From Armatimonadota bacterium (GTDB lineage: Bacteria; Armatimonadota; HRBIN16), in assembly GCA_963677485.1 (NCBI GenBank), contig OY781964.1:192001-256000 (forward strand): a stretch of 64,000 nucleotides of DNA, written 5' to 3'. Shown here one piece after another: positions 22,545 through 51,637 of this stretch. The position numbers and the translations under genes are program-made. Position 1 is the stretch's first letter, and every line of letters starts with the position of its first letter. The notes beneath the pieces were generated by a model. It searched no databases. It had not been told where the DNA came from and saw only the letters and a list, made by a program, of their open reading frames with translations.

Positions 22545-22557
22545 TGCTGCATGTCTC

Positions 22558-24217: not shown

Positions 24218-24426
24218 TCAGCTACCGGCTTCATACTAATCCGTGTTATCTCGGCTCGCTATAGTTGGAGTTTACACGAAGATTGTACCCTTATCCATTA
24301 GCTAAAGATCATCAAGTAGCTCCGTTGAACAGACAGACTGAGCTGCACTTGACGGGGTATGTAAAGCTATGCTACAGTGACGTATCACAACACACCGCAA
24401 TATGGTTAAATATGAGGAATCGTTCG

Positions 24427-26838: not shown

Positions 26839-27044
26839 CGTGACACCTCGTTATTGGGTTATTGGCGGAATTCTTCGTTATGATCGTTCAATCTTGCCTG
26901 ATTTAAGAGTATCCAAGATGCCATCAAGAATCGAGCCACACCGTGATCTGATCGAAAATCGGACATGGTGGGTATGATGAACTGTCTGAAGACTGAGTTT
27001 GAAGTCCCGATGATATCACCATGCTCGATGCGCCACACTCTGAC

Positions 27045-30000
27045 CTATTCTACCATCACCTGGTAATAGACATTCCCTTGACCACCGGAGTTCAATGCTC
27101 CCGAGAACTGCCACTGTATAGCACCTGTATCACCAACGGGAGGGGCAACTATAATACAACCGGACAGCGACAATGGCAGCGGGTCATATGATGCGGAATA
27201 GTAGCTGGTATAGTTCGGTGTATAGTCATTGATTAACAGATTGGAAAGACTAGTCAAACTCGTATTATTATACTTGATGGTATACGTGATGATATCACCT
27301 GATGCAGCGCTTATACGATCCACGCTCTTCAGTAGCGATAACCCACTATCTTTGGCCACGGTCGTCGTGTCTGTATGTGTATATCTCACCTGTAAAGATG
27401 GGTCCGCATTAACATATGTAAATGAGGCTAGTACTGTAAGCTGGTGTTGTGCATTCATAGGCGCATTAGCAGGCACATACACCCGTATGAGTATCGGCAC
27501 CACCTGTTCACCGCCTGTAAGCGTCAAAGCACCCGTGATTAGTGGGTCGCCTGTATCGATCACTCCGTTATTGTTTAAATCAAGGTAAATCGCTTCACTC
27601 CATTGAATAGACGCCGGTATAGCCGTGTGGTTAAGTGTGAATGTTAAGTAACCAGCCGTGTAAGCAACATATGTGTGACTATATGTGACTACACTTCCGG
27701 GCATTGTGGTCTGCGATCCATCCGTTGTGAATAAGTTGGTACCGACATCCCCGAAATTCAAGTTTGTATATTGAATCAGAGGGTTATTCGTGAAGGTGAG
27801 AGAATCTGTTGTCCGATCATAGCTGCCGCATGAGTTTCCAACATATCCACCTGTTGAAATGAACCCACTCAAGTTTTTCTCTGTGATAATCAACTGGGTC
27901 TGGCCAACTGTATATGGTACCCACAGTATGTAGCGCCCATCACTGGCGGTCACGTAAGTGTCCAGAACCGCTCCTCCCGAATCTCCCACTTTCACCGTAA
28001 TGCTAGATAAGCCGGTCTCACCACCATTCATCATGCCATCATTCGCAACACCCCCACCGGTCCCGTTATCGGTAAACACATATCCTGTCACTGTGTTGCC
28101 ATGGAACATCCCAAAGTTCTGGTTGACGACATTTTGCCCGGACATTGTGACGCCTGTCCGTATCTGGTTTGCCGTCTCAGTGCCTATCCATCCTGACGGT
28201 AGATAAGGGATCGTATCTGTAATAGTAGTATTATCATCGGTGATGATAGAGTAAACCCCAGTGGCTACTCCTGTGAATTTGAACCCGCCTGTTGCCGGAT
28301 CCACACTAACGGCATCAACAACAGTGCCTGATGATGATATTAGTTTGGCTTTCAGTGTTGAAACCGCAGTTCCCGTTTCATTTGAATCTTTATACGAATT
28401 ATGATTCACATCCTGGTAGACGAATCCAGAAATATCACTACCGGCTGTACCAATAGTATCTGTATCAATGGCAGTGTTGTTTTCCAAATCTGGGTCCGTA
28501 ATACCGTTTATAGCAGTCACAGTAACAGAATTGACCAAACTGCCGCTGGCGGCCAGGTCAACAGTTCCAGTGATCGTAAGAGTCACTGTTTGACCGGCAA
28601 GAAGGACCAAGCCGTTCCACGTACCGTTGCTTTCGTTGTATACACCGTTGGATGGTTTATACGTAGTGACCAGAAGGGACTTCGGAAAAGTCTCGACCAC
28701 AGTCAGACTGTTTACTGCACTCGAACCCAGGTTTTTGACACTGATGACATATATGATGGTGTCGCCTGGCATTGCTGAGGTTCTACCGTCCGTCTTTGTC
28801 ACTTCTAAATCAGCTTGGGGAACCAGGGTATCCGTATCAGATGACGTATTGTTATTAGCATTTGTATCTTGAATACCAGGGGACGGACTAACAACCGCCG
28901 ACACGGTCACAGGGTTGATTTCGGAGGCTCCAATGACACCATTTATCGTCAGGATGATGCTTTGACCTGAACTCAAGAGCAATCCGGTCCAGTTGCCTGT
29001 GGCAGCATCATAAGTACCGCTGCTGGCACTATATGTGACACTAGTAAATGATGAAGGTATGGTTGGTGACACAATGCAGCTGATCACTGCATCAGGTCCA
29101 TTATTGGTCACCGTGACAGTGTAGCTGTTCGCTGCTCCAGGAATGGCCGTGGTCTTCCCGTCAGTAATACCAATAGTCAAGTCTGCTTGAACTGGAGGGT
29201 TAGTGACGATGGCGTTAATCGACGGGGCTGGGCTGCCGCTGCCATCAGGGTCAACCACTGCTGTGTTTGTGATAATCAATGGCGGATTTGCACCAATAAG
29301 GACATTGAACGTCACAACGGCTTGCTCACCTATATTAATCTGGCCAGCCGCCCTGCCTGTGCTATAAACCTTAGTCTCAATGGTATAAGGCATCTTTCCA
29401 CTAACATCGGCAACAGCAACACCATTAAGTTTCGTACTTCCAGCAACATAACTGGTTCCGGTGGGAATCTGATCAATAACCGTGGTTCCGGCACTGTTCA
29501 CCGTTCCTGTGTTCTGAACGGTTATGGTGTATGTGACCACACTACCTGAAGTCACCCTACTTGGAGGGTTGGCTGTTTTCTGCGCCTGTATCCTCGGTGT
29601 ACCCGTCACTACTGCGTTTGTTGTGACAGAGCCACTGTTGAGAGGTAACTGTGGACAGCTCTGATAGCTATATGTCCACGTTCCGCTGTTGCTATACTGA
29701 GCGGTTGATGGCTGCACCGGAATTGAGTTTACGCGGAGTTTGAGCGTCACCGTCACCAGTGAACCTGCGGCGACCGTGCCAATCGGAACTCCTACTGTGG
29801 GATCTGCAGATGGTTGAGCTACACCGTTGATGGTAAATGATCCCGCGATAAATGAAGTGCCTGTTGGTGGAGCATCTGTAAACACCACACTGGTGGCGTC
29901 AGCCGTACCTAAGGTATTGTCCAGCTTAATCGTGTAGGTCAGCGTATCACCGATATAGGTCGAAGTTTTATCTACTGTTGTGACGGTTGCCGGGAATGCA

Positions 30001-31100
30001 GGGGCTCCGACGTCAATCTGCAGCCCTACAGAATTTATAATGTAACGATCACCCGTAGTAGTTCCTTTAGCATATGCTGTACTCATTCCGTTCAACATCC
30101 GCGCCGAAACATCTACGTTCGTGATATCCCAGCCTTGACGACCACCACTGGTGGCACCTCCGGGAGTATGGTTGGTGGTGCCAAATGATCCTGTTGTATC
30201 GCGCGTGCCATCGTCCTTGTTAATCTGAGAACAAAAAAAGTTAGTCAACGGGTTATTGGGTCCTGATACTGCCCCCGTCGTGGTAGCTGTTGGCCCAAAC
30301 TGCATTTGGTCACCAGTGATATTACTATCACCCTCTAGTGCACTTACCATCATCCGAGCATGTATGGCACCAACTTGGGGCGTACAGAAACCGGTCACTG
30401 ACGAAGTCGGACTTGCCGATGAGTTCGTCAACTCGCCTCCTACGAATACAGTCATGTTACGCGCAGGCAGTGTTGAGTTTCCATACACTACCGCTAGAGT
30501 CCATCCTCCAGCATTCGCACTATTTTCAGACGAAATTGTTGTAGCAGGCACTTTTCCAGTAACATAGACTCCAGCTCCTGCACTCTTCACCAAGTTAGTT
30601 ACGTCTGCCGAACGTACATAATAGTAGTCGCCAGTTAACGTGGTCGCACTCGCTGGATCAGGGCTGACGGTATATGTACCAAGTGGTGTTATGAACGAGA
30701 TTGCATTATTTATGCTTGTAGTGAGGTTTTGCGTGCCATACCGGTAACTGCCTCCCCAGATAAGTTCCGCATACAAAACAGTGCTATTGGCCGGAATGAC
30801 AAGGCTGGCCTTTGAAAAGTCTTTAGTCCAGTCTAGTGTTGTGCCTACAGGATAGGTTCCAACCTTAAGTGTTGTATCGGTTGTAATCAAAGCACCAATA
30901 GATCCATTGGTGCCTGGGTTGTTGGAACCGGTTGCCTTCGCTAATCCCAGGGTATTGCCAGTAAATGTCATGGCACCATTAGCGATTGTAGTAAAGCGCT
31001 TGATATAGACAGCATGTACTGGAATAATGACCACAAGCAGCCATGATAACACCAACGCCAGGTATAACCCAGGCCGGAATTGTCGATTGCGAGTGTTCAT
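27045..31100 (-). CDS. DUF11-repeat secreted protein (putative tip adhesin)
   Basis: Signal peptide; N-terminal AELIWGG/GGWTLAVVY globular domain; several DUF11 domains (KT...PG..ITYTI...N.G...D..P); SdrD-B-like SGFVYQDVNHN; C-terminal DUF11 domain ends at YQVMVE. Confidence 0.82.
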   Translation of the reverse strand: MNTRNRQFRPGLYLALVLSWLLVVIIPVHAVYIKRFTTIANGAMTFTGNTLGLAKATGSNNPGTNGSIGALITTDTTLKVGTYPVGTTLDWTKDFSKASLVIPANSTVLYAELIWGGSYRYGTQNLTTSINNAISFITPLGTYTVSPDPASATTLTGDYYYVRSADVTNLVKSAGAGVYVTGKVPATTISSENSANAGGWTLAVVYGNSTLPARNMTVFVGGELTNSSASPTSSVTGFCTPQVGAIHARMMVSALEGDSNITGDQMQFGPTATTTGAVSGPNNPLTNFFCSQINKDDGTRDTTGSFGTTNHTPGGATSGGRQGWDITNVDVSARMLNGMSTAYAKGTTTGDRYIINSVGLQIDVGAPAFPATVTTVDKTSTYIGDTLTYTIKLDNTLGTADATSVVFTDAPPTGTSFIAGSFTINGVAQPSADPTVGVPIGTVAAGSLVTVTLKLRVNSIPVQPSTAQYSNSGTWTYSYQSCPQLPLNSGSVTTNAVVTGTPRIQAQKTANPPSRVTSGSVVTYTITVQNTGTVNSAGTTVIDQIPTGTSYVAGSTKLNGVAVADVSGKMPYTIETKVYSTGRAAGQINIGEQAVVTFNVLIGANPPLIITNTAVVDPDGSGSPAPSINAIVTNPPVQADLTIGITDGKTTAIPGAANSYTVTVTNNGPDAVISCIVSPTIPSSFTSVTYSASSGTYDAATGNWTGLLLSSGQSIILTINGVIGASEINPVTVSAVVSPSPGIQDTNANNNTSSDTDTLVPQADLEVTKTDGRTSAMPGDTIIYVISVKNLGSSAVNSLTVVETFPKSLLVTTYKPSNGVYNESNGTWNGLVLLAGQTVTLTITGTVDLAASGSLVNSVTVTAINGITDPDLENNTAIDTDTIGTAGSDISGFVYQDVNHNSYKDSNETGTAVSTLKAKLISSSGTVVDAVSVDPATGGFKFTGVATGVYSIITDDNTTITDTIPYLPSGWIGTETANQIRTGVTMSGQNVVNQNFGMFHGNTVTGYVFTDNGTGGGVANDGMMNGGETGLSSITVKVGDSGGAVLDTYVTASDGRYILWVPYTVGQTQLIITEKNLSGFISTGGYVGNSCGSYDRTTDSLTFTNNPLIQYTNLNFGDVGTNLFTTDGSQTTMPGSVVTYSHTYVAYTAGYLTFTLNHTAIPASIQWSEAIYLDLNNNGVIDTGDPLITGALTLTGGEQVVPILIRVYVPANAPMNAQHQLTVLASFTYVNADPSLQVRYTHTDTTTVAKDSGLSLLKSVDRISAASGDIITYTIKYNNTSLTSLSNLLINDYTPNYTSYYSASYDPLPLSLSGCIIVAPPVGDTGAIQWQFSGALNSGGQGNVYYQVMVE

Positions 31101-31172
31101 TGTTGTGCAGTTCCTTCAGTCGTCTGTATGGTCAGGTGTTCAGATATCCTTACATATTGATAAGGTTCAGTA

Positions 31173-34100
31173 TCAGTGCGCCGCGGGTGTTTCAACACTC
31201 GAACCAGCCTTCGCAGGTGTCTGCACCCCCATGATCGACTCATCGAATTTGAACCTCAGGCGCACATACGGACCCTTGCCTGTGTAGTTCCCATCAACCA
31301 GCAGATCATCGTCAAAGCCCGAAAAGTTATAACCTGCACTCAGCCAAAGATTGCGGTGCAGCATGAAACCACCTTCAATCCCGATGGAGTTCATATCGCC
31401 ACCAAGCGAATCGTTCCAGTAGTTACTCGAGATGAATGACAGCTGAGTGCGAGGCGTCAGGTTGAGACTAAACCGCTGCTGCAGCAGCATCGCCTTGGTT
31501 GTTGTGCTTAACGGTCCAAGTGTATTGTCCGAAATCCTCATCGCGAGATGCGTACCGCTCTCGATACATCGCGAGGGTTGGTAGTTGATATCCGTAGAGA
31601 TGATGTGGGATCGTTCAGTCCCACCATCTGGTCTGTCAGGGGCACTATCATAGCGCAATTCGTATTTTGCTAACCCATTCCATCGATCACGGCTAGACTC
31701 ACGGTAAGCCACACCCATCATCAACCGAGCTTGTGTCTGGGTGTCTACGTCCGACTTCGATATCTGAAGAATCGCTTTATCTAGTGCGGTCCAATCTTCC
31801 GATATCTTGACCGCAGTTCCTAAAGTGGTCAGCCAGCTTGTGTTCCCCGAATTGATCCGGTATTCAACACGGGCCGAACCCTTCCATTTCTCAGAGCCAG
31901 TGTACTCCACCGCACTCGTCACTGCAGTCGAAGAGCTCGTAGTCTTGCCGTCCACAGGCTCTATACGCTCTAAACTAGCGTTTATCCGCAATCCACGGTT
32001 GATCTCCCATTGGTTGCGCAAACCTATCGCAGCCTCGGTCTCTCGCCCTGAGAAAGCATCACGAGAGCGATATTCGCTAAATACGTGCGCACTGCCCAGG
32101 TAGTCAGTATCAATGCCGATCACTGAAGTCTGTTGAGATTGGTTGGCATTTAACAGGTATCTTCCCGACAGTGTGGAGTTGAACTCCTGCCGTGCATACA
32201 GACGGCCACGGTTCGCGAATAGATATTCGCCACCTACTGCCAGCACATGTTTGGTAGCATCACTGATGTCCTGTTCATATTCTGAGTAGAAGGTGGCCGA
32301 AGCCCATTTCGGTACCAGCTTAGTGATCTTCGCTCTAAAACTTGTGAAATTCACAGGAGGATCAGTCGTACCGCCTGTCGGTAACAGGGCTCTAGTCTCT
32401 TCGGCATGACGAAAACCAAATTCCAGCCGAAGTTCAGGCGAAATCGACTGTTCTACGCTGGCGGAGATTCCTGTACGGTTCGTGCCCATGCTTCGGTCTT
32501 CAGACTGGATAGCCTCGGTCATGAACCGCGTATTTTGATTGTGCAGGTATGAGATTTTCGACGATATCTCTACGCGCCCCTTACCGATTGAAGCAGCAGT
32601 ATTTTCAAACGACATATCTGTGCTGGCAGCCATGATACGCGCCTGTAACTTACCGGTTTCATGCGAATATTCAACACGCTGCCCTGTGCCCTTACCGAGA
32701 AGATCGCTAGACGTTTGAGCCAGTTCACCGGTCAGTTTCGTATTCGCGTTGATCATCCATTCTGCAGACAAACCGGACATAGACCACGGATTACCGGGGA
32801 CATCTGCACTGACATATGTGCCTCTGAGTATGAGGTTCTTTTTGAGGTTCAGTCGCCCGTCTACTCCAGCAGTGACGTATTTGGGACCTCCAGAGTCTAC
32901 CTCATAGCTGACACGTACTGAAACAGGGTTCATATTTTCATCGAAACTCGGCACCGGCGATTTGAACAGTATTGTCGCGTTATTCAGGTCGACTGTATAT
33001 TGAAAATACCTGGTCATAGGTGTCGTCTTCAAGATTACAGAAGGTTGATTGCGATCACGGACCAGGATTTCGACTCTCTCGGTATTGTCTACCATCAAGC
33101 CCGGGCCAAGACTGTATGGGCCCGACGTTCCGTTCGCCAACACCTCAACGATGTTCTGACGCATACTATCATAACTAGCGAAGAGATTGACTGCACTTGT
33201 GCCCGTCTCATGATGTGTCATCAAGCCTGTCAAGCTTCGGTTATAATTGCTTAGGTGCCGTCCTTCATCGGAAGTGCTCGTTGAGAAGTCACCGTACATC
33301 ATAAAGGACTGGCGTTTCTCAAGGCGAATATATGTTTTTTGGGATGTCTGACCGTCAAATCCTTTGATCGAGGAATCGCCATATACAGGGTAAAATTCGT
33401 CGGGCTGGATGTCTCTGAAGAGTCTACCAAGTTTGTCTTTGTTGGACTGGTATGCTAAAGTCAACAACGTGTCGTCGTTGATACGCCCTTTCATAAACAC
33501 GGAGGCTTGGCTGTGGCTCAGAACCGTCGATTCGTTCTGTGCCAATCCAAGATCAACTACACCAACCGCCAGCATAGGACGCAGATTGGGAACAAACTCC
33601 AATTTGACCTTGCTGGACATCAAGCCGCTGGAAACCCTCAAGTTGGTCACACAAGCCTCGCGCGGTGGCAACAGCTCATACTTACCTTCGCCTCCGTCCA
33701 AAAACACCTGAACCCCTTGCTCAAGTGGATTCAAGTCTGTGACATTCCATTCGGCTCCGTCATTTTCTAGCGTGATCGGTGTGCGTGTTTGCACCAAAAT
33801 CCCGTTCGAGTCCACTAATCTGATGATGATAGGTAAAGGTGCTTTTGTGTCTGCGACATGCTTTCCCTCAGGAACGACGATGTCGATCTTGCTTAAGGCG
33901 CCGGAGGTGACGACGTTGATTTTGGCCTCACCACGGTCGTTACCTAAGCCGTCACGTTGGGTGACGGTGACGACATTGGTTCCGGGCTTGAACTCAACGC
34001 CGATATACTCCCAAACCTCGATATTTTTAATGAAGTAAGTGTGCTTAGCACCGACTTGGTCATCAGATATCACCTTGCCATTCACCCGCAGGATAAATGT

Positions 34101-37016
34101 ACTTCCGATGCGTCCCTTCACGATCAGATTCCAGATTGGTATAGGCAGCACATCACCTGAGTTAATATCTACAAAACCCAGATCATTAGTAAAACTGGGT
34201 ATCCTGTCCACCAACGGAGCCGTCTGTGCAGCACGGACTGGTGCAGACGGTAAAGAGCTGTTGCCTTGCCCTGCAGAACTGCCTGGCAGGGGCAGGTTGT
34301 TAACTATCGACTCGTTGTTCCCGGACGTGTATCCACTGGCTAATGTAGATCGGGTTTCGCTGATATCTACAGGATTGGGCGTCACAGGTAGAGTAGTCGC
34401 TAATGCAATGGTGGTCTCGCCTTGGATCTTGGCCAGCGCCTTCTTGCGCAGAGCAGCCTCTTCTTTGATTTTGGGGTCACTGTTTTTGATGGCGAAATTC
34501 ACTTTCCGCATCTCGCCAAGCCGAATCTCCGCAAACGAGCTGCCCGGATCACCCACGCTCTCATGGCCTGCTTGTGAGAGCACCGCATTAGCCGGGAGTG
34601 ATAACAGGTCAACCTTGAGTACATGGGTTCCAGCAGATAAGGCATACAGACTGTATTTACCTTCGCCATCCGTAATCACAAAGGAGCCATCGTCTAGACA
34701 GATGCGGACCCCAGGCATCCCCTGCTCGGTGGGATCCACTATGCCGTTGCCATTGTCGTCAATAAACACCCTACCGATCACTACACCCTGATCTGTGAAA
34801 ACGCCCATCCGCAGTCGAACTTCAGACACGCCAACGTTCGATGATATCGGTCCATAACTAGAATTCGCTGCTGCCTTAGCCGTGTTCCTTAACACGCTCT
34901 CACGTGTTCCTGACTTTATACCAACACGATAAGAGACCACAACCGAACTACCGGGTTTCATCTCGTCGATCGTGAAGGACATGTTCGCTCCGTTCGCCAC
35001 AACGGGATCGTCCGCCTTTATCTTGTTGACATAGGTGGTACCAGGCATGTAGACCTCCCCGGTGGGCAGGGTGTCTGTGATGGCAACATCAGTTAAAGTG
35101 GTGCCTGTATCATTCTTAAGGCGCAAGGTGTAGTCGATCATCTCGCCCACTTCAACGGTCTGCTTTGACGAGCTCTTTTCCATGATGAACCCACTGCCCG
35201 CATTGAAATCTAATGGGATATCCAACGATATGGCCGATGACGCTACGGTAGTCATGAACTGCCCACCGTAGGAGGCCACAGGATCAACAGACCGACCGAC
35301 GGGTAATGATGAAGCAGGCAGTGTTGAAGGAAATACATAGTTACCTGGAGGTGTGACGATGATTTTATACGAACCGGGCACGACATATGGAAACCGGAAC
35401 ACACCATCGCTTCCTGTGGTCAATGGGTTGTTAACCGGTGTCACCCCATCCATTGCCAGCACCTTAGCTAGGCCACCGGCATCGCCGCCATTACTCACAC
35501 CCGTGACATCAACCAATGTGACCTGGGCGTTGGCAACTGGTGTGTTAGTGCGACTATCGAACACGACACAAAACGGGTCAACCGTAACGAAGTCGGTTAC
35601 GGTCTGTCCATACTGGTCGGTAAAGGTCGCAGTCAACTTGTCGTTTGGCCTGGTTTCTAGTATCCCATTCCCTGGTATCGCGGTAGATTGCGAAGCATCA
35701 GCCGTTACGATGGCCTGGTCTATGCGGAAGATACCTGTGTTAGGGCCAGTTTCAGTAGCCGTCACAGTTTCGCTGTCGCCTGTTAAGGCCGATGTAATGG
35801 TGATGTGGATAGTTTCTGCCATGCCAGGATCAAGGTTACACTCTGCAGCCATGATCTCCAAGAACAAGTGGTTACCTATGGCCTCCAGATCAGTCGGGCG
35901 AGCATAACCACTATCCCAATAGAATGAAATCTGAGGAGCTTTGCTTTCAACGGCTACCACTACCGCATTTGAGGTAGCCAGCAGATCGCCTGCCGTCGCC
36001 GGATCGACGCAGCGCAACCGAGCGGTGTTCCTGATATCGATATTAATGGTGTTGTGCAGCTTCACGCGTAACACACACTCGAATCGTTCCCCTGCATTCA
36101 AATGCCGGAGGCCATATGCCACACGGTCCACCGATGTGATATCTGAAGGAGCGGTACTGAAATATGAGTTTTGAGGGTCACCCAATCTGTGGTACAACAC
36201 AGTTCCGCTGCCATTTCCATGTAATTCAACAAAGGATGTATTGGCAGGGATATCATCCACACACATCACATATTTCTCATCGTGGCCGTTCACTTGGATA
36301 GTGGCAGGCAGCGCATCCACAAGCCCTGCATTTGCTCCTTGTATCGAAAAGTCCACAGACTCACCAGCGCGGGCAGATGCCTGCAATGCTGATTTTGTCA
36401 ACAAGAGTTCAACGGAACTACCTATCCTGAATGTATCGCGATTACTGGCGGACACGGCACTCAACACAGTCGTAGCCTGCAGTAGGATTATACACTTATC
36501 GCCGTATGGGATACCCGCAGGAATGACATTCGCGAAGACTAGTTGAACCCGTTGGCCAGGATCAAGCTCAATCGTGCTTCCATCGGCCATGTATGGCTCC
36601 CCAGAGTTGACCACACCATCACCATTCGTATCAACATATAGCCGAATGCTTGATATGGTATAGTTGGAGTCTTTATCGCACCAATATGATAGCTTGTATG
36701 TTGACTTAATATTCCCTGTGTTCTGAATTATATGTGAGGTGTATACTGTGTCACCTGGTACGCAGGCCACTGTGTTATCCGTCGTCAACAACAAGGATTC
36801 AAGAGGTTGTACGATCACACGAACGATGTTTGTTTGAAGTGTGTATTTCGCTCCCGTTTCGGGATCTGTATAGTGGTTGGTCGCCTGGTTTTCAATGACT
36901 GTACCGGCCATCGGAGCAGCACCGTAGGTAAGTGCAGCGCACCATAATAAAAATAGTATGGTTACACCGATTATCATACGGCGGATATTATCGATCCGTT
37001 GATTGTTGCTGCTCAT
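31173..37016 (-). CDS. DUF11-domain protein with a predicted C-terminal outer-membrane beta-barrel (putative anchor/secretion pore)
   Basis: Signal peptide then AGTVIENQATNHYTD; two complete DUF11 domains; GRVFIDDNGNG SdrD-B-like domain; about 700 C-terminal residues of amphipathic strands ending GPYVRLRFKF. Start uncertain (track TTG 37121; ATG 37016 preferred). Confidence 0.78.
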   Translation of the reverse strand: MSSNNQRIDNIRRMIIGVTILFLLWCAALTYGAAPMAGTVIENQATNHYTDPETGAKYTLQTNIVRVIVQPLESLLLTTDNTVACVPGDTVYTSHIIQNTGNIKSTYKLSYWCDKDSNYTISSIRLYVDTNGDGVVNSGEPYMADGSTIELDPGQRVQLVFANVIPAGIPYGDKCIILLQATTVLSAVSASNRDTFRIGSSVELLLTKSALQASARAGESVDFSIQGANAGLVDALPATIQVNGHDEKYVMCVDDIPANTSFVELHGNGSGTVLYHRLGDPQNSYFSTAPSDITSVDRVAYGLRHLNAGERFECVLRVKLHNTINIDIRNTARLRCVDPATAGDLLATSNAVVVAVESKAPQISFYWDSGYARPTDLEAIGNHLFLEIMAAECNLDPGMAETIHITITSALTGDSETVTATETGPNTGIFRIDQAIVTADASQSTAIPGNGILETRPNDKLTATFTDQYGQTVTDFVTVDPFCVVFDSRTNTPVANAQVTLVDVTGVSNGGDAGGLAKVLAMDGVTPVNNPLTTGSDGVFRFPYVVPGSYKIIVTPPGNYVFPSTLPASSLPVGRSVDPVASYGGQFMTTVASSAISLDIPLDFNAGSGFIMEKSSSKQTVEVGEMIDYTLRLKNDTGTTLTDVAITDTLPTGEVYMPGTTYVNKIKADDPVVANGANMSFTIDEMKPGSSVVVSYRVGIKSGTRESVLRNTAKAAANSSYGPISSNVGVSEVRLRMGVFTDQGVVIGRVFIDDNGNGIVDPTEQGMPGVRICLDDGSFVITDGEGKYSLYALSAGTHVLKVDLLSLPANAVLSQAGHESVGDPGSSFAEIRLGEMRKVNFAIKNSDPKIKEEAALRKKALAKIQGETTIALATTLPVTPNPVDISETRSTLASGYTSGNNESIVNNLPLPGSSAGQGNSSLPSAPVRAAQTAPLVDRIPSFTNDLGFVDINSGDVLPIPIWNLIVKGRIGSTFILRVNGKVISDDQVGAKHTYFIKNIEVWEYIGVEFKPGTNVVTVTQRDGLGNDRGEAKINVVTSGALSKIDIVVPEGKHVADTKAPLPIIIRLVDSNGILVQTRTPITLENDGAEWNVTDLNPLEQGVQVFLDGGEGKYELLPPREACVTNLRVSSGLMSSKVKLEFVPNLRPMLAVGVVDLGLAQNESTVLSHSQASVFMKGRINDDTLLTLAYQSNKDKLGRLFRDIQPDEFYPVYGDSSIKGFDGQTSQKTYIRLEKRQSFMMYGDFSTSTSDEGRHLSNYNRSLTGLMTHHETGTSAVNLFASYDSMRQNIVEVLANGTSGPYSLGPGLMVDNTERVEILVRDRNQPSVILKTTPMTRYFQYTVDLNNATILFKSPVPSFDENMNPVSVRVSYEVDSGGPKYVTAGVDGRLNLKKNLILRGTYVSADVPGNPWSMSGLSAEWMINANTKLTGELAQTSSDLLGKGTGQRVEYSHETGKLQARIMAASTDMSFENTAASIGKGRVEISSKISYLHNQNTRFMTEAIQSEDRSMGTNRTGISASVEQSISPELRLEFGFRHAEETRALLPTGGTTDPPVNFTSFRAKITKLVPKWASATFYSEYEQDISDATKHVLAVGGEYLFANRGRLYARQEFNSTLSGRYLLNANQSQQTSVIGIDTDYLGSAHVFSEYRSRDAFSGRETEAAIGLRNQWEINRGLRINASLERIEPVDGKTTSSSTAVTSAVEYTGSEKWKGSARVEYRINSGNTSWLTTLGTAVKISEDWTALDKAILQISKSDVDTQTQARLMMGVAYRESSRDRWNGLAKYELRYDSAPDRPDGGTERSHIISTDINYQPSRCIESGTHLAMRISDNTLGPLSTTTKAMLLQQRFSLNLTPRTQLSFISSNYWNDSLGGDMNSIGIEGGFMLHRNLWLSAGYNFSGFDDDLLVDGNYTGKGPYVRLRFKFDESIMGVQTPAKAGSSVETPAAH

Positions 37017-37035
37017 CACGGTCTGTCGCCACCAA

Positions 37036-37115
37036 CTCCTGCCTGCACATGCTGTTCTATTTCTTGTCACAGCATGTGCAGGCAGGAGCAATCCTGCTGT
37101 CAGTATTGCTCCTGC
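37036..37115 (-). promoter_or_regulatory. Two overlapping intercistronic hairpins
   Basis: 20-bp perfect inverted repeat 37036-37055/37069-37088 overlapping an 11-bp inverted repeat 37082-37092/37105-37115. Confidence 0.6.
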
Positions 37116-37123
37116 TTTCAACC

Positions 37124-39782
37124 CTACTGGTTGATCTTGACTTCGAAGTAGATTACAGCGGTTTGTCCAGGTGCCAACGACAGGATCGTTGCACTAACCG
37201 TTCCGACTGAACCTGCAGATGGGACCGTAATCGCGGTGAAGCTTGAGCCGCCGTCAAACGTGATGGCTCCCACTCCAGTAGCGCTCACCGTTCCGTCGCC
37301 AGCATGATATGTTGTATACGCTGGTGTGGAGTCGGTGATTACGATGTTAGAGTTTGTCGTGGTGCCAGTATTGGTTGCTGTGATCCGATAGCGGACACAC
37401 GAACCAGGTACTGCACCGGTGGTGATATTGGTTTGCTGGTATGCCCCTTCAGGGGTACCATTCCCATCAGCATCCAGAGCCTGCTCTTTAATGATGCGAA
37501 CGTCACCGGCGATCACGGTAGATGTGTCTTTGACGATCGCAGGAGCAGGAGCTGCTGTGCTGTATGTGCCTTGGGTTGTTGTAGCGGTCAATGTGCAGAC
37601 ATCGACGATACCTGCAGATGCGCCTGATGGAGCATAGACCTTCACGAAGAGAGTGGCCGATTCGCCAGGATCGAGCCCAGCACCGGTGCTTGCACCATTA
37701 AGGCCACCCACAAGTGAATCGAGACTATTAATAATGGCGTCACCGGAGTCCAGAACGCCGTTATTGTTTTTGTCCCAGTAAATCGCTGAACTAAAGCCAG
37801 ATTGAGTATCTGCTGTAGTCAAAGAGATCAAGCTGGCGAGACCATCACCTTCATGAACGTTACCGTTGTTGGCGATGGTATGGGTATAAACAACAGAACC
37901 ACCAGGGAATACCTGACCACTGTTGTTTGGCACTGTAGAGATATTCCGCATCATGTTGATGGTGACAGCATCGTGCTTGATGTCGAAGGCACCGGTTGTT
38001 GGCGACGTCACACGATAGTAAATGTTGTAGGTGCCAGCGGGTGCATTGGGAGCCGTATAGATATCGGAATGGACATGCATACTACCACCTGGTGCAATCA
38101 TACCTGTTTCAGATATGATTGTTTCGGTATCATTTTCATTTAGTATGCTCCAGCCGATTGGCAGCACGATAGTCGCAAATGTGGGGTCTGTACTGGCCTG
38201 TATGATATACGAGTCAGGAACTGAGCTCGTGTTGTTGACATACAGATCCATATCAACATGATATGCTGGCGGCACGGACTTGATGGTCACAGGCGAGCCT
38301 TCAGGACCTGTGCCCAGACCATCGGCTGCTGTCGCTCCATTGGCGATCGATCTGTTGTTGGTTAAGTCTACAGTACTGCGAGTGATCACGCTGACTGTAT
38401 CTGTGGTAGTCGCGAACTTCGTTGCATCTACTGAGGAAGTAGCAGTTTTGTCAACAGAGTAACCCTTATTGCCCCATGCATCAGCAGGCAGTTTTACCTT
38501 GACAACTACGTTATAGGTCGCACCAGGATCTAGAGGTCCTGTATCTGGTATGCTGTCTCCGTTGGTATCAAGCAATGGTGTCACGCCATCGCTGCGATAC
38601 AGAACGATAGTTGATCCTATAGGAAAGACATTGTTCGACAGAGTGATATCGAAGGTGTCGATACTGTTACCATTGTTTGTCACGACGTTGGTGAACGTCA
38701 CGGTGGCCCCTTGAGAAGAACTGGGCAGAGTCTGTCCAATAATAGCGACAGCGACAGTCGGGTCAACATAGAAGTCCGTTGTATTGGTACTTCCTGCGAT
38801 GATTGCGCCTGTTCCATCGTTGTATTCGTAGGTGGCCCTGTTGTAGATATCACCCGACATAGCATTGCTGTCGATTGAAACCTGGAAGCTAATTGATCCC
38901 GAGTTTGTCTTAGCCAATGTCGATATCTTTGCGGTGATGGTTCGGGTTCCAGCCGAGTAGCTGTAGTCGATACCTGCAGGGTCGCCACCAACCGCATCAG
39001 TAACCGGGGCTCCACTCCATTTTGCGCTACCGAGGATATAGGTCATTCCTACAGGAATCACATCGGTAATGACGAAATTAGTGGCATCCTGGTTGCCTGG
39101 GTTGGAGTAGGTGAATGTAAAAGTGACTGGCGATGTGCCCGTAAAGCCGTGGTAAATATCTTCAGCCTTGCTGATGACTATCACAGCGTTATTAGTCACA
39201 GTCACATTATCGGTATTCGAAGCTGTCTTCGTACCGTCAAACTGGCTGGTGGCCGTTACTGTCAGAACAGCCGTGCCACTTATCACGTTTGGAATCGTGC
39301 CCACGATCACAAACTTAAAGTTGCCGCCGGCAGGCACGGCACCTGTGGAGGTAATAGCCGCAGCACCTGGGTCTGCGATTCCATCTCCATTCGCATCTGG
39401 ATAAATCAGCACGCCAGTCAAGTCAAAACTGTCGCCTCCAGACTGCAAGATAGATAGATTGAAAGTGTCCGTCCCATTCCCTGTGTTATTAAGGGTGTGA
39501 GGGAAACTTACCAAACCAGACGGAGGTGCATACTTCACATTGTCCGAAGTTAATGTGAGGCTGGCTACCTGCTGAACTATGTTATTTATTAACAGCGTTC
39601 GATGTGACGTTGTGCACAGTTCCACTGGCATCAGTGTAGGTTGCAGATGCCTGGTTGCCGATGGAAGTGCCTGCTTCTGGAACCGCTGCCATCACCGGTG
39701 CCTGTGTATACAGGCCCATAGTTAACGCAATGAAACAGAGTTTCATTGCGTTAGCACCGAGTCGGAGCAAGGAGTTTTTCAT
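37124..39782 (-). pseudogene. DUF11-domain secreted protein (putative major filament subunit), frameshifted at about 39583-39590
   Basis: The 66-aa ORF with signal peptide (39582-39782) and the 835-aa ORF join into an 884-aa protein when one TATT of TATTTATT is removed (…TSNAVNNIVQQVASLTL…). Confidence 0.85.
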
Positions 39783-39871
39783 CTGTTAATTCCTTTCTAG
39801 TTTTGTTATTACTGTTGCTACCATTACAGGTACCGCATGTCCAATACCGTTGTATGGAAGTGCGTAGTCGA

Positions 39872-40399
39872 TCAGCGGATTTTGGCTTTGTTAGTTTTCA
39901 CACCTGGTTGGGCAGAAAGCAGTTTGACCCGTGCTATCACGACCAGGTTCTTACCGTTTTCTTGTTTGCCCACCTTCCATTTGATAAACCTGTATGACTC
40001 CATAGGAAGCTTTATGGTCTTTTCCTTACCATTTGAGTCCTTAATCAGCTTCACTAATGGAATAGTAGAGAAATGTGATCCATCGGTACTAGCTTCAGCC
40101 TTGGAAGGCTTACAGCTGTCCTCAATGTAGACAGAACCTGCAGGAATGGGTAAGACTGGCTGTATAGCAGTAATCGTCTTCCCTGTTTGGTTCGTGAGTG
40201 TAAGTTGATATTCAATGATATCACCTGGGGTCGCTCGAGCAGCAGACACTAGTTGCTCTTTACCGTTTGAGCGAGAGACCTTGAAAGCAGCAAGGACGCT
40301 TGATACACCGGTTTTATCGGCTGCATGCGAAACAGCGAAGCCGGTAAGCAGGCAAAGCACTGAAATCGCTATGCCAGAAGCAGCGGAGACGAGTTTCAT
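39872..40399 (-). CDS. Small secreted DUF11-like protein, first gene of the operon
   Basis: Signal peptide ending SHA; ATPGDIIEYQLTLTNQTG, LPIPAGSVYI, IKWKV; AGAGGT RBS. Confidence 0.8.
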   Translation of the reverse strand: MKLVSAASGIAISVLCLLTGFAVSHAADKTGVSSVLAAFKVSRSNGKEQLVSAARATPGDIIEYQLTLTNQTGKTITAIQPVLPIPAGSVYIEDSCKPSKAEASTDGSHFSTIPLVKLIKDSNGKEKTIKLPMESYRFIKWKVGKQENGKNLVVIARVKLLSAQPGVKTNKAKIR

Positions 40400-41233
40400 T
40401 TAGACAACCTCTCTGTTGGTTACTATCAGGTCGGCCTGCTCTATGATAGATAGCCACAGGCTTCTCAACGCATACTACACCGGTTTCATGAAGCGTATTC
40501 ATTGGCTGTCAGTATGCGTAAGCTGGATTGGATACGACACAGCGGGGTGCCGTAGAATTCCATACATCCGTTTGAATGGACTGTGTCTGATACCCCATAC
40601 CAAAACATTCAGGAGAACCTTGGGTATGGGCTTAAGGAGGTTCAGCATATATACGATGAAGTATCACACGCAGTTTATCCAAGCTCCATTACACAGACGG
40701 CCGGATGATATACAACGAGTATACCTTAGGCTTCACCATAAACATGCGATTTACATCAAAATAGTAAACTAGTAGCAAAATCGCATAGCATTATGGTTGA
40801 AGTCTCATCGTCATCCACTTCCGTGAAGTCAGCGTCATGATCCTTCAACCCCCACTTCCCATTGCTGATTGTTTGTTCACTAGTATATGCAGGGTGTGCA
40901 ATGAGATGGTGGTGGTGGCGTGACGCAAAGAGAGTCCATAGTCAGTGGGTGATCGGCGGGGTCGATAAATACGGTCGGCCGACGAATGCTTACAATGGAG
41001 GGTTCACGACAGTTGCTGTCTATGATCGGCAACTTCGAGGCATGGGTGATGAAGTGATCCAGTTCCTGAGGAAAGCTTACGAACCGCCGACTCTGTTCGC
41101 CCGGTCCGGCACGTTAAGACCATTAGTTGAGGACAACCATATATACGATGGAGCAAGGAACTGATGCAGAGAAGAAGAGATTTTAATGCCTGGGTAGACA
41201 AGATCGAGTTTGAATTGAAAGTAATGCCGCGGT

Positions 41234-41264
41234 AAAAAAAAGCCTCAACCTTTCGGTTGAGGCT
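41234..41264 (-). terminator. Intrinsic terminator of tRNA-fMet copy 1
   Basis: AGCCTCAACC-GAAA-GGTTGAGGCT followed by a U tract on the minus strand. Confidence 0.85.
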
Positions 41265-41268
41265 AACA

Positions 41269-41344
41269 TGGGTGCGGGGGAAAGATTCGAACTTACGACC
41301 TCCGGGTTATGAGCCCGGCGAGCTGACCACTGCTCCACCCCGCA
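41269..41344 (-). tRNA. Initiator tRNA-fMet(CAT), copy 1
   Basis: TGCGGGGTGGAGCAGTGGTCAGCTCGCCGGGCTCATAACCCGGAGGTCGTAAGTTCGAATCTTTCCCCCGCACCCA; three consecutive G-C pairs in the anticodon stem; A11-U24. Confidence 0.93.
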
Positions 41345-51633: not shown

Positions 51634-51637
51634 AACA

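What the first reader, a model, noticed from the sequence alone, without database searches (positions are those of the whole stretch)
27045..40399. Four-gene DUF11 operon with tip/shaft/anchor logic: candidate donor-strand, isopeptide-crosslinked filament
Seen: complete internal DUF11 domains start with a Lys strand, contain D-x-x-P and finish with an 'I/L-x-N-x-A...S/T-N' segment (for example ISKAED...DVIP...SFQVSI...GDIYNRATYEYND...STNTTDFYV). The last domains of the 884-aa protein (IIKEQ...DSTP...YFEVKINQ*) and the 1,351-aa protein (LLKSV...DYTP...YQVMVE*) stop before that Asn segment. That same segment appears free at the mature N-terminus of the 884-aa protein (GTSIGNQASATYTD...TSNAV) and of the barrel protein (GTVIENQATNHYTD...QTNIV). 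The 1,351-aa protein therefore has an acceptor only (tip), the 884-aa protein has donor and acceptor (polymerising shaft), and the largest has a donor plus a predicted outer-membrane barrel (anchor/pore). No sortase motif or PapD/PapC-type gene is evident. Known: Lys-Asn isopeptide bonds catalysed by an acidic residue form in Cna-type Ig domains, and donor-strand complementation builds chaperone-usher pili. Inference: a sortase-independent, covalently self-ligating pilus in a diderm bacterium, resembling a natural tag/catcher pair.
Basis: partly seen in the sequence, partly recalled or inferred. Interest (0 to 1): 0.85.

Follow-up and report, generated by a model that had tools for sequence, protein, structure and literature searches.

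The report
Split-domain self-ligating surface fibre operon
This widespread but uncharacterised operon of outer-membrane bacteria encodes surface proteins whose ends look like two halves of one cross-linking domain, so they probably snap together into a covalent fibre without any enzyme; in this genome the middle (shaft) gene is broken.

Summary
Shaft and tip proteins end in a DUF11 (CLIPPER) domain that keeps the isopeptide Lys and catalytic Asp but stops before the Asn strand. Shaft and barrel proteins begin, right after their signal peptides, with that Asn strand. In 51 shaft orthologues N43, K764 and D816 are invariant.

A complex model docks the N-terminal strand of one shaft onto the C-terminal domain of another (score 0.79, best control 0.26). 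Natural fusions give separate support. In tandem shaft-shaft and shaft-barrel proteins, all 23 non-terminal acceptor-type domains are followed at once by the Asn (or Asp) strand.

The C-terminal ~700 residues of the largest protein model as a very large outer-membrane beta-barrel. The genome has no sortase, usher or PapD.

Corrections and additions:
- The "884-aa protein" is not one ORF here. Four surplus bases put a stop just after the donor strand, and contigs of four public runs agree.
- The 175-aa protein is an acceptor-like paralogue without the catalytic Asp, possibly a chaperone.

Covalent bonding, polymer length, and cis versus trans pairing remain untested. Six literature searches found no description of this system.

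The parts
39872..40399 (-). 175-aa Sec-exported single DUF11-like domain. It is a paralogue of the terminal acceptor domains, it also ends before the Asn strand, and it has Leu where the catalytic Asp should be. Proposed non-ligating chaperone or cap for donor strands (hypothesis).
   Evidence: DUF11 profile 8-74 of 114. (59-sequence alignment). (hhalign against the tip acceptor: 97.3%, E 1.9e-11; against the shaft acceptor: 87%, E 4e-6). (0 of 59 have Asp at the catalytic position, 48 have Leu; Lys in 43 and Arg in 10 of 59).
39582..39782 (-). 5' fragment of the shaft gene: signal peptide plus donor (Asn) strand ...AGTSIGNQASATYTDASGTVHNVTSNAVNK, then a stop.
   Evidence: (donor profile E 1.4e-18).
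39581..39590 (-). Frameshift site: 10 nt here where congeners G001 and G002 have 6 nt, giving an in-frame TAA.
   Evidence: DNA comparison. (contigs of 4 of 4 runs from 2 studies cover it with 0 differences; two of the runs may be the assembly's own source).
37124..39691 (-). Remainder of the shaft gene in the other frame (855 codons stop-to-stop, 835 from the first ATG at 39631). It has no signal peptide of its own and is a string of Ig-like domains that includes one complete DUF11 domain.
   Evidence: (the intact orthologue models at mean pLDDT 88, all-beta). (Foldseek returns only generic tandem-Ig proteins).
38741..39151 (-). Internal complete DUF11 domain of the shaft (ISKAED ... ITDVIP ... 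IYNRATYEY ... STNTT) with its own Lys, Asp and Asn.
   Evidence: (DUF11 18-99 of 114, E 1.6e-8). (the equivalent K204 is invariant; D239 and N313 are at least 90% conserved in 51 orthologues).
37127..37531 (-). Shaft C-terminal acceptor domain (RIIKEQ ... VITDSTP ... IYFEVKINQ*): Lys and Asp present, Asn strand absent.
   Evidence: DUF11 11-84 of 114; the domain ends 2 residues before the stop. (K764 and D816 invariant in 51 of 51). (interface).
31173..37121 (-). Anchor protein (1982 codons from the listed TTG; the likely start is the ATG near 37016). Order of parts: signal peptide, donor strand, about 1100 aa of Ig-like stalk (CarboxypepD_reg, one complete DUF11, SdrD_B), then a C-terminal beta-barrel.
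36807..36908 (-). Donor (Asn) strand at the mature N-terminus of the anchor protein: AGTVIENQATNHYTDPETGAKYTLQTNIVRVIVQ.
   Evidence: a profile built from shaft donors only hits it at E 3.3e-7. (54 of 64 barrel orthologues match the motif; 8 of the 10 misses show an Asn variant by eye).
31176..33725 (-). C-terminal 850 aa of the anchor protein: predicted very large outer-membrane beta-barrel, with roughly 32 long strands between model residues 267 and 825 and more strands before that.
   Evidence: AF2 with 72 sequences, mean pLDDT 72.5. (Foldseek top hits LptD, SprA, SlpA, FimD/PapC, MtrB; E 4e-8 to 1e-5; TM only 0.18-0.28). (all 50 listed rows are membrane beta-barrels, Z 14.8-9.7).
27045..31100 (-). 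Tip protein (1351 aa): signal peptide, head domain, four DUF11-type domains, SdrD_B-type domains, then a C-terminal acceptor domain. It has no conserved N-terminal donor strand.
   Evidence: (only 5 of 37 tip-like proteins match the donor pattern). (the TIANGAM Asn is replaced in G020 and in L024).
29976..31010 (-). Head domain of the tip (residues 31-375) with no Pfam family. Its nearest Atlas clusters are 'cell surface protein' clusters.
   Evidence: no family. (no PDB sequence relative). (Atlas scores 0.97 and 0.96; DUF3344 in 15-16% of two weaker clusters, a lead only).
27048..27392 (-). Tip C-terminal acceptor domain (SLLKSVD ... LINDYTP ... VYYQVMVE*): Lys and Asp present, Asn strand absent.
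   Evidence: DUF11 2-52 of 114, 23.8 bits, just under the cut-off.. (Asp in 37 of 37, Lys in 32 of 37 tip-like proteins). (33 of 33 tip-type acceptor domains are terminal).

Best explanation
The operon encodes the parts of a surface fibre or adhesin of a diderm bacterium that assembles through a naturally split CLIPPER (DUF11, CnaA-like) isopeptide domain.

**Shown**
- The tip and the shaft end in a 'catcher' half: strands carrying the Lys and the catalytic Asp, with no Asn strand.
- The shaft and the barrel protein start, right after signal-peptide cleavage, with the 'tag' half: I-x-N-x-A...S/T-N, two strands.

**Supported by a model and by natural fusions**
- The tag of one protein inserts into the catcher of the protein distal to it and completes the Ig fold, as in donor-strand complementation.

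**Inferred**
- Lys and Asn then form an autocatalytic isopeptide bond. This rests on the invariant triad and on homology to the solved CLIPPER domain 9IFR.
- The presence and absence of halves gives the order tip, then shaft (n >= 0), then barrel protein. The barrel protein ends the chain and anchors it in the outer membrane.
- The barrel's very large lumen may also be the export channel, like an usher.

**Hypothesis**
- The 175-aa protein is a catcher paralogue without the catalytic Asp. It may be a periplasmic chaperone that holds tags reversibly and prevents premature or self (cis) ligation.

**In this genome**
- The shaft gene is cut by a frameshift just after its tag. At most a tip-barrel conjugate could form here, plus possibly a free secreted 34-residue tag peptide.
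For: 1. **Anatomy in the window.**

2. **Conservation.**
   - The operon order small, shaft, barrel holds in 54 of 80 loci from many phyla. Another 3 of 80 have small followed by a fused shaft-barrel gene, and 5 of 80 have a shaft cut by the contig end. In 16 of 80 there is no upstream sequence, and in 2 of 80 neither gene was found.
   - The donor motif follows a signal peptide in 49 of 50 shafts, and the one miss has it by eye. It is present in 54 of 64 barrel proteins.
   - N43, K764 and D816 are invariant in 51 of 51 shafts.
   - Among tip-like proteins, Asp is present in 37 of 37 and Lys in 32 of 37.
   - Keeping Lys and Asp in a domain that has no Asn of its own makes sense only if the Asn comes from elsewhere.

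3. **Complex model.**
   - Shaft residues 750-884 were modelled with shaft residues 33-200. The score was 0.79 (three runs: 0.79, 0.79, 0.82) against a best control of 0.26. That mark was reached by 58 of 80 solved complexes and 2 of 110 mismatched pairs.
   - The runs agree in at least 92% of contacts, and the partner's pLDDT is at least 91.
   - The interface joins donor residues 41-52 and 59-71 to acceptor residues 758-766, 781-791, 807-817 and 882-884.
   - K764 and D816 both touch A45, which lies on the same strand face as N43.
   - The donor went to the other chain even though its own first Ig domain was present in the model.

4. **Natural fusions (Rosetta-stone argument).**
   - Among 115 strong acceptor-type domains, 92 are terminal.
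   - All 23 non-terminal ones are followed within a few residues by the donor segment: 11 by profile, 10 by Asn motif, and 2 variants (LND, VTD).
   - These include tandem shaft-shaft proteins P0121-P0124, where 12 of 12 junctions fit, and shaft-barrel fusions (L036, L039, P0125-P0132) that lack the intervening signal peptide.
   - Across the fused junction the DUF11 profile runs 10-114 and 11-113 of 114, against 11-84 in the split shaft.

5. **The barrel protein has a donor but no Asn-less domain, and the tip has an acceptor but no conserved donor.** At least these two must pair in trans if they pair at all.

6. **Barrel fold.** Omp85 is present in the genome.

7. **Known machineries.** No sortase, usher, PapD or LPXTG.

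8. **DUF11 chemistry.** DUF11 is an experimentally shown intramolecular isopeptide domain with K715, D748 and N806 in 9IFR (PMC12617251, passages read).
Against: - There is no experiment and no expression data. The bond itself is inferred.
- The complex model splits what is homologous to a known single domain, so its pass may reflect memory of the intact fold. It cannot separate cis from trans.
- An N43-K764 contact is not among the 25 best-defined pairs. Residue 43 only lies within the listed interface range.
- The AF2 monomer of an intact shaft gives the donor segment (residues 40-67) as beta-strands at pLDDT 83-92. So it is docked somewhere in cis in that model. I could not see coordinates.
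- The acceptor chain keeps a pLDDT of 73-86 when paired with unrelated partners. It is therefore not predicted to be unfolded when alone.
- The terminal domains score at or just under Pfam's cut-off (24.6 and 23.8 bits). The fused junctions score 24.0 and 21.6 bits.
- The donor profile matches internal Asn strands only non-significantly (E 0.26-1.1).
- A gene ending in a tip-type acceptor was found in only 33 of 80 loci. By whole-protein profile it lies downstream in 43 of 80. In 29 of 80 downstream DNA is held and no hit was found.
- The barrel model is of moderate quality (mean pLDDT 72.5, TM 0.18-0.28 to any solved barrel). The strand number and any translocon role are open.
- In this genome the shaft gene is broken.
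Confidence: 0.65

Rival explanations
1. Cis closure or a fixed 1:1(:1) complex, not a polymer. The shaft's own N-terminal strand completes its own C-terminal domain, giving a cyclised monomer. Alternatively, exactly one shaft bridges tip and barrel. Either way the product is a two- or three-piece covalent adhesin rather than a pilus of many subunits.
For: - The AF2 monomer keeps the donor segment ordered (pLDDT 83-92).
- Nested CnaA-like domains built from distant chain segments exist, for example GBS104-like 3TXA with residues 137-211 plus 587-717 (listed in PMC12617251).
- Shaft donors and tip acceptors are both highly conserved, while barrel donors are more variable. That fits fixed cognate pairs.
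- No test of pairing specificity was possible.
Against: - The donor docked onto the other chain with its own first domain present.
- Tandem shaft-shaft fusions with 2 to about 5 units in one chain show that the linear head-to-tail joint is a natural geometry.
- Tip and barrel cannot be satisfied in cis.
- A cyclised shaft would have no link to the cell.
Confidence: 0.17
2. Strand complementation without a covalent bond. The halves pair as in chaperone-usher pili, but the Lys/Asp/Asn triad is a relic or only stabilises packing.
For: - Some DUF11 domains lack the isopeptide signature (PMC12617251, passage).
- The bond geometry could not be checked.
- 5 of 37 tip-like proteins lack Lys in the aligned column.
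Against: - N43, K764 and D816 are invariant across 51 shafts from many phyla, while neighbouring positions vary.
- Asp is present in 37 of 37 tips.
- The one paralogue that lost the Asp (the small protein, 0 of 59) is the one with no place in the finished fibre.
Confidence: 0.1
3. Independent adhesins. The N-terminal motif is a sorting or export signal, and the truncated last domains are just degenerate repeats. The four proteins do not join.
For: - The motif sits directly after the signal peptide, where sorting signals often lie.
- Databases name these proteins only as repeat or DUF11 proteins.
Against: - In fusions the motif occurs internally, exactly after acceptor-type domains and without any signal peptide.
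- The DUF11 profile runs through the junction.
- The complex model passed against its controls.
- Both halves co-occur strictly within one operon.
Confidence: 0.05

Closest known systems
Chaperone-usher pili (type 1, P pili)
   Same: An N-terminal extension of one subunit completes the incomplete Ig fold of the next. There is a tip adhesin, a repeating subunit and a terminating subunit. A large outer-membrane barrel is encoded in the operon, and the FimD translocation domain is among the best fold matches (Z 14.0, rmsd 6.3 over 322 residues, tied with many other barrels). A small Ig-like periplasmic protein is encoded alongside.
   Different: No usher or PapD family member is found in the proteins or in the genome. 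Subunits are 900-2000 aa multi-domain rods rather than single pilin domains. The barrel is fused to a stalk that itself carries a donor strand. The groove carries the Lys and Asp of an isopeptide triad. The small protein would accept a strand rather than donate one.
Sortase-assembled pili of Gram-positive bacteria (Spa, RrgA/B/C, GBS pili)
   Same: CnaA/CnaB-type Ig domains with Lys-Asn isopeptide bonds. Covalent subunit-to-subunit linkage. Tip, shaft and basal-anchor logic.
   Different: No sortase in the genome and no LPXTG in the four proteins. The link would be made by the domain's own triad after strand insertion, not by transpeptidation to a pilin-motif Lys. The anchor is an outer-membrane barrel, not peptidoglycan.
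CLIPPER (DUF11) fibrillar adhesins; structure 9IFR (PMC12617251, passages read)
   Same: Same domain family (PF01345) and the same Lys/Asp/Asn triad order. The internal domains here are ordinary complete CLIPPER domains.
   Different: That work describes intramolecular bonds within one chain. In the passages found by searching the paper for 'intermolecular' and 'split', no split or intermolecular CLIPPER is mentioned. Here the terminal domains are split between gene products.
SpyTag/SpyCatcher, DogTag/DogCatcher (engineered split isopeptide domains; recalled, plus the DogCatcher abstract start in the listing)
   Same: One partner carries the Lys and the catalytic acid. The other is a short strand carrying the Asn or Asp. 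The bond forms spontaneously after docking.
   Different: Those pairs were made by cutting Gram-positive adhesin domains in the laboratory. Here the cut appears to be natural, is conserved across phyla, and is used to build a structure.
Archaeal thread filament (Saci_0406; PMC9715654, passages read) and C. perfringens BsaA (bioRxiv 10.1101/2024.11.04.621531, listing and abstract start only)
   Same: Natural filaments that combine donor-strand complementation with intermolecular isopeptide bonds and have no dedicated sortase.
   Different: The folds are unrelated. In threads the bond joins Asn57 to the N-terminal amine of subunit n+2, not Lys to Asn through a CnaA-type triad. The cells are an archaeon and a monoderm, with no outer-membrane barrel.
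Autotransporters (type V secretion)
   Same: An N-terminal passenger and a C-terminal barrel lie in one polypeptide. The passenger is presumably displayed outside.
   Different: No autotransporter family matched. The barrel is several times larger, with about 32 or more predicted strands. The passenger would in addition be ligated to other proteins.

Membership tests
DUF11 / CLIPPER (PF01345) | Match to the family profile above the curated cut-off | tested here: met
   tip 200.2 bits (5 stretches), shaft 42.8, barrel protein 37.2, against a cut-off of 24.6. The small protein scores 21.3, below the cut-off. TIGR01451 matches all four.
DUF11 / CLIPPER (PF01345) | Lys (first strand), Asp (D-x-x-P) and Asn (I-x-N-x-A) within one domain | tested here: met
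   Internal domains only. Shaft K204 is invariant, and D239 and N313 are at least 90% conserved in 51 orthologues.
DUF11 / CLIPPER (PF01345) | Complete domain, including the Asn strand, in the terminal domains of shaft and tip | tested here: not met
   Profile coverage is 11-84 and 2-52 of 114, and the chain ends 2 residues after the last matched strand. 92 of 115 acceptor-type domains are terminal.
DUF11 / CLIPPER (PF01345) | An isopeptide bond actually present | not testable with these tools
   This needs mass spectrometry or a structure.
Chaperone-usher pilus system | Usher (PF00577) | tested here: not met
   0 matches in the genome (the control rang in E. coli). No match in the four proteins. 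Fold likeness to the FimD barrel is only as good as to many other barrels.
Chaperone-usher pilus system | PapD-like chaperone (PF00345) | tested here: not met
   0 matches in the genome.
Chaperone-usher pilus system | The N-terminal strand of one subunit completes the fold of the next | tested here: inconclusive
   A model supports it (0.79 against 0.26) and so do natural fusions. Trans pairing has not been shown.
Sortase-assembled pili | Sortase (PF04203) and an LPXTG sorting signal | tested here: not met
   0 matches in the genome. 0 LPXTG-like motifs in the 4 proteins.
Outer-membrane beta-barrel proteins | Closed antiparallel barrel of long strands | tested here: inconclusive
   The AF2 model is all-beta with about 32 long hairpin strands. 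All listed structural matches are membrane barrels. However, pLDDT is 72.5, TM is 0.18-0.28, and I could not inspect barrel closure.
Outer-membrane beta-barrel proteins | The host has an outer membrane and a BAM machinery | tested here: met
   Omp85 (PF01103) matches at 141 bits in the genome. LptD (PF04453) was not found, but that control rang in only 2 of 14 genomes.
Split isopeptide tag/catcher pairs | Lys and the catalytic acid on one partner, Asn or Asp on a short strand of the other | tested here: met
   By sequence and conservation only.
Autotransporter (type V) | Autotransporter beta-domain family | tested here: not met
   No such family among the Pfam matches of the barrel protein. 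No PDB sequence relative of the barrel profile.

The most novel reading that the evidence does not exclude
This is an undescribed and widespread way for diderm bacteria to build surface fibres. At least 1994 barrel-protein clusters carry it, across Proteobacteria, Verrucomicrobiota, Acidobacteriota, Nitrospirota, Armatimonadota and others. Giant multi-domain subunits polymerise head-to-tail through a naturally split CLIPPER domain that locks itself with an autocatalytic Lys-Asn bond. The chain is ended and anchored by a protein that is both its last subunit and its own usher-sized outer-membrane pore. A catalytically dead catcher paralogue acts as the periplasmic chaperone. It would be nature's own tag/catcher system, found long after the engineered ones.
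Probability: 0.5. Interest if true: 0.9.

Novelty: new variant of a known kind. Interest (0 to 1): 0.82.

Why it matters
If the bond forms in trans, this adds a pilus or adhesin assembly route to the textbook list (chaperone-usher, type IV, type V, curli, sortase). The new route needs no enzyme, no ATP and no known machinery. It is present in many environmental phyla whose surfaces are hardly studied.

It would also provide a large natural library of orthogonal tag/catcher pairs (shaft, barrel and tip variants) together with a natural non-ligating catcher. These would be useful for protein ligation technology.

It makes a clear prediction that two small recombinant pieces can test in a day.

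For genome annotation, it gives a rule for reading thousands of 'DUF11 repeat proteins'. A terminal Asn-less domain marks an acceptor. An Asn strand right after the signal peptide marks a donor.

Tried and rejected
- **PDB sequence searches.** The tip head gave only chance-level hits (best E 0.052). The barrel profile gave none.
- **NCBIfam** has no specific model for any of the four proteins.
- **Promoter and terminator scan** of 26600-41450 was at chance: 19 promoter-like sites against 19.3 expected, and 13 terminator-like sites against 11.0. The only strong terminator (41264-41241) closes the upstream glucan-synthase gene.
- **Donor profile against internal Asn strands** was not significant (E 0.26-1.1). 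The likeness of the free segment to internal strands therefore rests on the motif, the model and the fusions.
- **AF2 monomer of the intact shaft** was meant to test whether the donor is left free. It is ordered instead. The tool gives no coordinates and /data holds none, so I could not see whether it sits on the C-terminal domain. The test is undecided.
- **Foldseek of the shaft model** returned only generic tandem-Ig proteins.
- **Atlas searches** returned only 'cell surface protein' clusters or the proteins' own families.
- **A paper found under 'DUF11'** (PMC11821415, tat-fimbriae) concerns DUF1102 and not DUF11. It is only an analogy for tip/adapter/shaft/anchor logic.
- **Tip N-terminus (TIANGAMTF) as a donor** was considered and rejected. 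The Asn is not conserved (G020, L024), and only 5 of 37 tip-like proteins fit the pattern.
- **Sequencing error as the cause of the frameshift** was considered and rejected. The caveat is that two of the four runs may be the assembly's own source.
- **Programmed frameshifting** was considered and not pursued, because the site is absent from all 5 relatives.
- **Pairing specificity** (which donor goes with which acceptor) and the pairing of the small protein with a donor could not be tested.
- **Literature.** Searches found no description of this operon. The library lacks most subscription journals. Only the first 300,000 characters of the 2026 review PMC13721041 are held. Supplements were not seen.

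Full report
**What is in the window**

On the minus strand, 27045-40399 holds four co-directional genes separated by short gaps:
- a 175-aa protein (39872-40399);
- the 'shaft' (37124 to about 39782);
- a 1982-codon protein (31173-37121, with a likely ATG near 37016);
- a 1351-aa 'tip' (27045-31100).

All four have Sec-type signal peptides by eye and all match DUF11/PF01345. The 8 DUF11 matches of the whole 5.22-Mb single-contig genome all lie in this operon. A strong terminator-like hairpin at 41264-41241 closes the preceding gene. The scan was otherwise at chance level.

The quoted motifs are present.
- The shaft ends ...IYFEVKINQ* and the tip ends ...VYYQVMVE*.
- Each of these last domains has the first-strand Lys (RIIKEQ, SLLKSVD) and the D-x-x-P Asp (VITDSTP, LINDYTP).
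- Pfam's DUF11 profile covers only positions 11-84 of 114 at the shaft end and stops 2 residues before the stop codon. It covers 2-52 of 114 at the tip end. An internal complete domain covers 18-99.
- In the solved CLIPPER domain 9IFR the triad is K715, D748 and N806 within Pfam range 712-812. The Asn therefore lies near profile position 95, beyond where these domains end (PMC12617251, passages read).
- The barrel protein's mature N-terminus carries AGTVIENQATNHYTD...QTNIV.

The '884-aa protein' is not one open frame.
- Signal peptide plus ...AGTSIGNQASATYTDASGTVHNVTSNAVNK is followed by TAA (39782-39582). The rest of the gene runs on in another frame.
- The window has 10 nt (39590-39581) where two congeners have 6.
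- Logan contigs of 4 of 4 public runs from 2 studies cover the site with no difference. Two of those runs may be the assembly's own source.
- Five relatives have intact shafts, with open frames of 885-918 aa.
- The disruption therefore looks real and strain-specific.

**The operon is a widespread conserved unit**

- The barrel region finds relatives in 10 of 41 related genomes.
- It finds at least 552 stretches in the species-representative genome collection. The holders are labelled Burkholderiales, Gammaproteobacteria, Geobacteraceae, Verrucomicrobiota, Acidobacteriota, Nitrospiraceae, Armatimonadia, Entotheonella and others.
- It finds at least 1994 protein clusters. The names I saw in the listed rows are generic: DUF11 domain-containing, TIGR01451 repeat protein, large repetitive protein, SdrD B-like or carboxypeptidase-regulatory-like domain protein, hypothetical.

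Gene order in the best 80 loci:

| Arrangement | Loci (of 80) |
|---|---|
| small, shaft, barrel | 54 |
| small, fused shaft-barrel | 3 |
| shaft cut by contig end, barrel | 5 |
| no upstream sequence held | 16 |
| upstream held, neither gene found | 2 |

The tip is less constant. A tip-like gene lies downstream in 43 of 80 loci. An ORF ending in a tip-type acceptor domain was found in 33 of 80. In 29 of 80, downstream DNA is held and no hit was found.

**Both halves are conserved**

- The donor motif (A-x-P-x-A-G-T-x-I-G-N-Q-A-x-A-T-Y-x-D...T-S-N-x-V) follows a hydrophobic signal stretch in 49 of 50 shafts. The one miss has it by eye.
- It is present in 54 of 64 barrel proteins. By eye, 8 of the 10 misses carry an Asn variant and one carries Ser.
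- Only 5 of 37 tip-like proteins match it.
- In 51 aligned shafts the invariant columns include N43, K764 and D816.
- In 37 tip-like C-termini, Asp is present in 37 and Lys in 32.
- All shaft and tip-like proteins end 2-4 residues after the same strand.
- A profile built from shaft donors alone finds the barrel protein's N-terminus at E 3.3e-7. It matches internal Asn strands only non-significantly.

**Do the halves fit?**

The one complex job paired shaft residues 750-884 with shaft residues 33-200 of the intact G002 orthologue. Both chains were given as alignments.
- Score 0.79 (runs 0.79, 0.79, 0.82); best of 3 controls 0.26.
- That mark was reached by 58 of 80 solved complexes and 2 of 110 mismatched pairs.
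- Contact agreement between runs is at least 92%, and the partner's pLDDT is at least 91.
- Donor residues 41-52 pair with the strand carrying D816 (807-817). Donor residues 59-71 pair with the strand carrying K764 (758-766) and with 781-791. The extreme C-terminus (882-884) touches the donor's first residues (33-35).
- K764 and D816 both touch A45, which lies two residues from N43 on the same strand face.

This shows that the model is confident, not that binding occurs. Because the pair is homologous to one known domain cut in two, the pass may come from memory of the intact fold.

**Natural fusions**

A search for longer relatives of the shaft returned two kinds of fused protein.
- Proteins of 2023-4139 aa contain two to about five shaft units in tandem (P0121-P0124).
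- Proteins of about 3100-3400 aa fuse shaft and barrel protein (P0125-P0132, also L036 and L039).

In the four tandem proteins, 12 of 12 shaft-type terminal domains are followed 4-10 residues later by a donor-profile match, with no signal peptide between them. An example junction reads ...TFGVQI-AAGTPAGSASVDNQTSATYTD.

I then scanned all 143 fetched proteins and all ORFs of the 80 loci.
- Of the 115 strong acceptor-type domains found, 92 are terminal (59 shaft-type, 33 tip-type).
- All 23 non-terminal ones are followed by the donor segment: 11 by profile, 10 by Asn motif, 2 by variants (LND, VTD).
- Across the fused junction the DUF11 profile runs 10-114 and 11-113 of 114, although at marginal scores of 24.0 and 21.6 bits.

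So the free N-terminal segment and the truncated C-terminal domain are two halves of one domain. Both a shaft-to-shaft joint and a shaft-to-barrel joint exist in nature as continuous chains.

**The anchor**

- The last 850 residues of the largest protein, folded with 72 sequences, are all-beta with about 32 long hairpin strands between residues 267 and 825 (mean pLDDT 72.5).
- Foldseek's best hits are LptD, SprA, SlpA, FimD/PapC and MtrB, at E 4e-8 to 1e-5 but TM only 0.18-0.28.
- In an exhaustive alignment against 48,161 chains, all 50 listed rows are membrane beta-barrels (Z 14.8-9.7). The FimD translocation domain scores Z 14.0.
- No sequence relative is solved.
- The genome encodes an Omp85 protein.
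- The protein's only DUF11 domain is complete, so its donor has no partner in cis.

**The fourth gene**

The 175-aa protein family (59 sequences) is a single DUF11-like domain.
- It aligns to the tip acceptor domain through to its last strand (hhalign 97.3%, E 1.9e-11) and more weakly to the shaft acceptor (87%, E 4e-6).
- It also ends before any Asn strand.
- It has Leu, and never Asp (0 of 59), at the catalytic position. Lys is kept in 43 of 59 and Arg in 10.

A catcher that cannot ligate has no place in a finished chain. I propose that it holds donor strands in the periplasm. This is a hypothesis and was not tested.

**Known machineries are absent**

Sortase, usher and PapD families give 0 matches in the genome (97% complete by marker genes), and their controls rang in the expected model genomes. 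There is no LPXTG in the four proteins.

**What stays open**

- The AF2 monomer of the intact shaft (mean pLDDT 88) shows the donor segment as confident strands (pLDDT 83-92). In that model it is docked in cis somewhere, and I could not see where. Self-closure of the shaft is therefore not excluded.
- Monomer predictions of donor-strand pilins often self-complement. This statement is from my own knowledge, not from a call.
- The argument for trans pairing rests on the tip (acceptor only), the barrel protein (donor only) and the linear tandem fusions.
- The covalent bond, the number of shaft units, the export route and the function of the tip head are inferred. The head has no family. Its nearest Atlas clusters are 'cell surface protein', with DUF3344 as a weak lead.

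**Comparison with what is known**

The principle resembles chaperone-usher donor-strand complementation combined with the isopeptide chemistry of Gram-positive pilins. The closest natural analogies are:
- archaeal threads, which combine donor-strand complementation with an Asn-to-N-terminus bond between subunits n and n+2 (PMC9715654, passages read);
- C. perfringens BsaA (listing and abstract start only).

The closest mechanistic analogy is the engineered tag/catcher pairs (recalled, plus the listing). The system fails the membership tests for all the known bacterial pilus machineries.

Six full-text searches found no description of a split or intermolecular DUF11 system. A 2026 review of bacterial surfaces lists only chaperone-usher, type IV, sortase and curli routes in the passages I saw (only the first 300,000 characters are held).

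**Verdict**

- Confidence in the split-domain, trans-ligating fibre reading: 0.65.
- Novelty: a new variant of donor-strand-built, isopeptide-locked filaments.
- Interest: 0.82.

Noticed in passing
window 22556-24218 and 49263-50925 (+): Two identical 1,663-bp direct copies, each with a 511-aa ORF that matches no Pfam or NCBIfam family. The genome holds 22 near-identical copies, so this looks like an active insertion sequence with an unclassified transposase. The two copies bracket a 25-kb segment (24219-49262) that contains the whole DUF11 operon, a WG-repeat protein, a beta-propeller protein and the GH94 gene. The arrangement resembles a composite transposon.
   Followed up: partly
window 41418-49238 (-): A 2606-aa protein with GH94 supersandwich and catalytic domains plus a glucoamylase-like domain. 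By my recollection of that family, it looks like a cyclic beta-1,2-glucan synthase. It lies directly upstream of the operon and is closed by a strong hairpin terminator at 41264-41241.
   Followed up: no
window 41237-41363 and 51606-51732: A 127-nt direct repeat (97% identical) that includes the terminator hairpin. It may be a small repeated intergenic element.
   Followed up: no
window about 33370-33425 (-), residues about 102-119 of the 850-aa barrel piece: The most conserved stretch of the barrel protein (LFRDIQPDEFYPVYGDSS, nearly invariant in 72 sequences) is predicted with very low confidence (pLDDT 30-38). It lies just before the barrel. It could be a plug, a latch or a partner-binding motif.
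   Followed up: no
proteins P0121-P0124: Relatives with 2 to about 5 shaft units fused in tandem still begin with a free donor strand. They end in further repeats and a dockerin-like D-x-N-x-D-G motif pair instead of pairing with a barrel protein. The same module may therefore be used with a different anchor in another lineage.
   Followed up: partly
proteins P0078 and P0126: In two shaft-barrel fusions the Asn position of the junction strand reads V-T-D or L-N-D. An Asp could still form a Lys-Asp isopeptide, as in CnaB2-type domains (recalled).
   Followed up: no
window 39582-39782 (-): Because of the frameshift, the strain may secrete a free 34-residue donor ('tag') peptide. That peptide could occupy the tip's acceptor and compete with the barrel protein's donor. 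This is speculative.
   Followed up: no
shaft C-terminal domains in L017-L096: Many orthologues carry two conserved Cys (DANC ... PGAC) in the acceptor domain, suggesting a disulfide. The window's copy and its congeners have only the second Cys.
   Followed up: no
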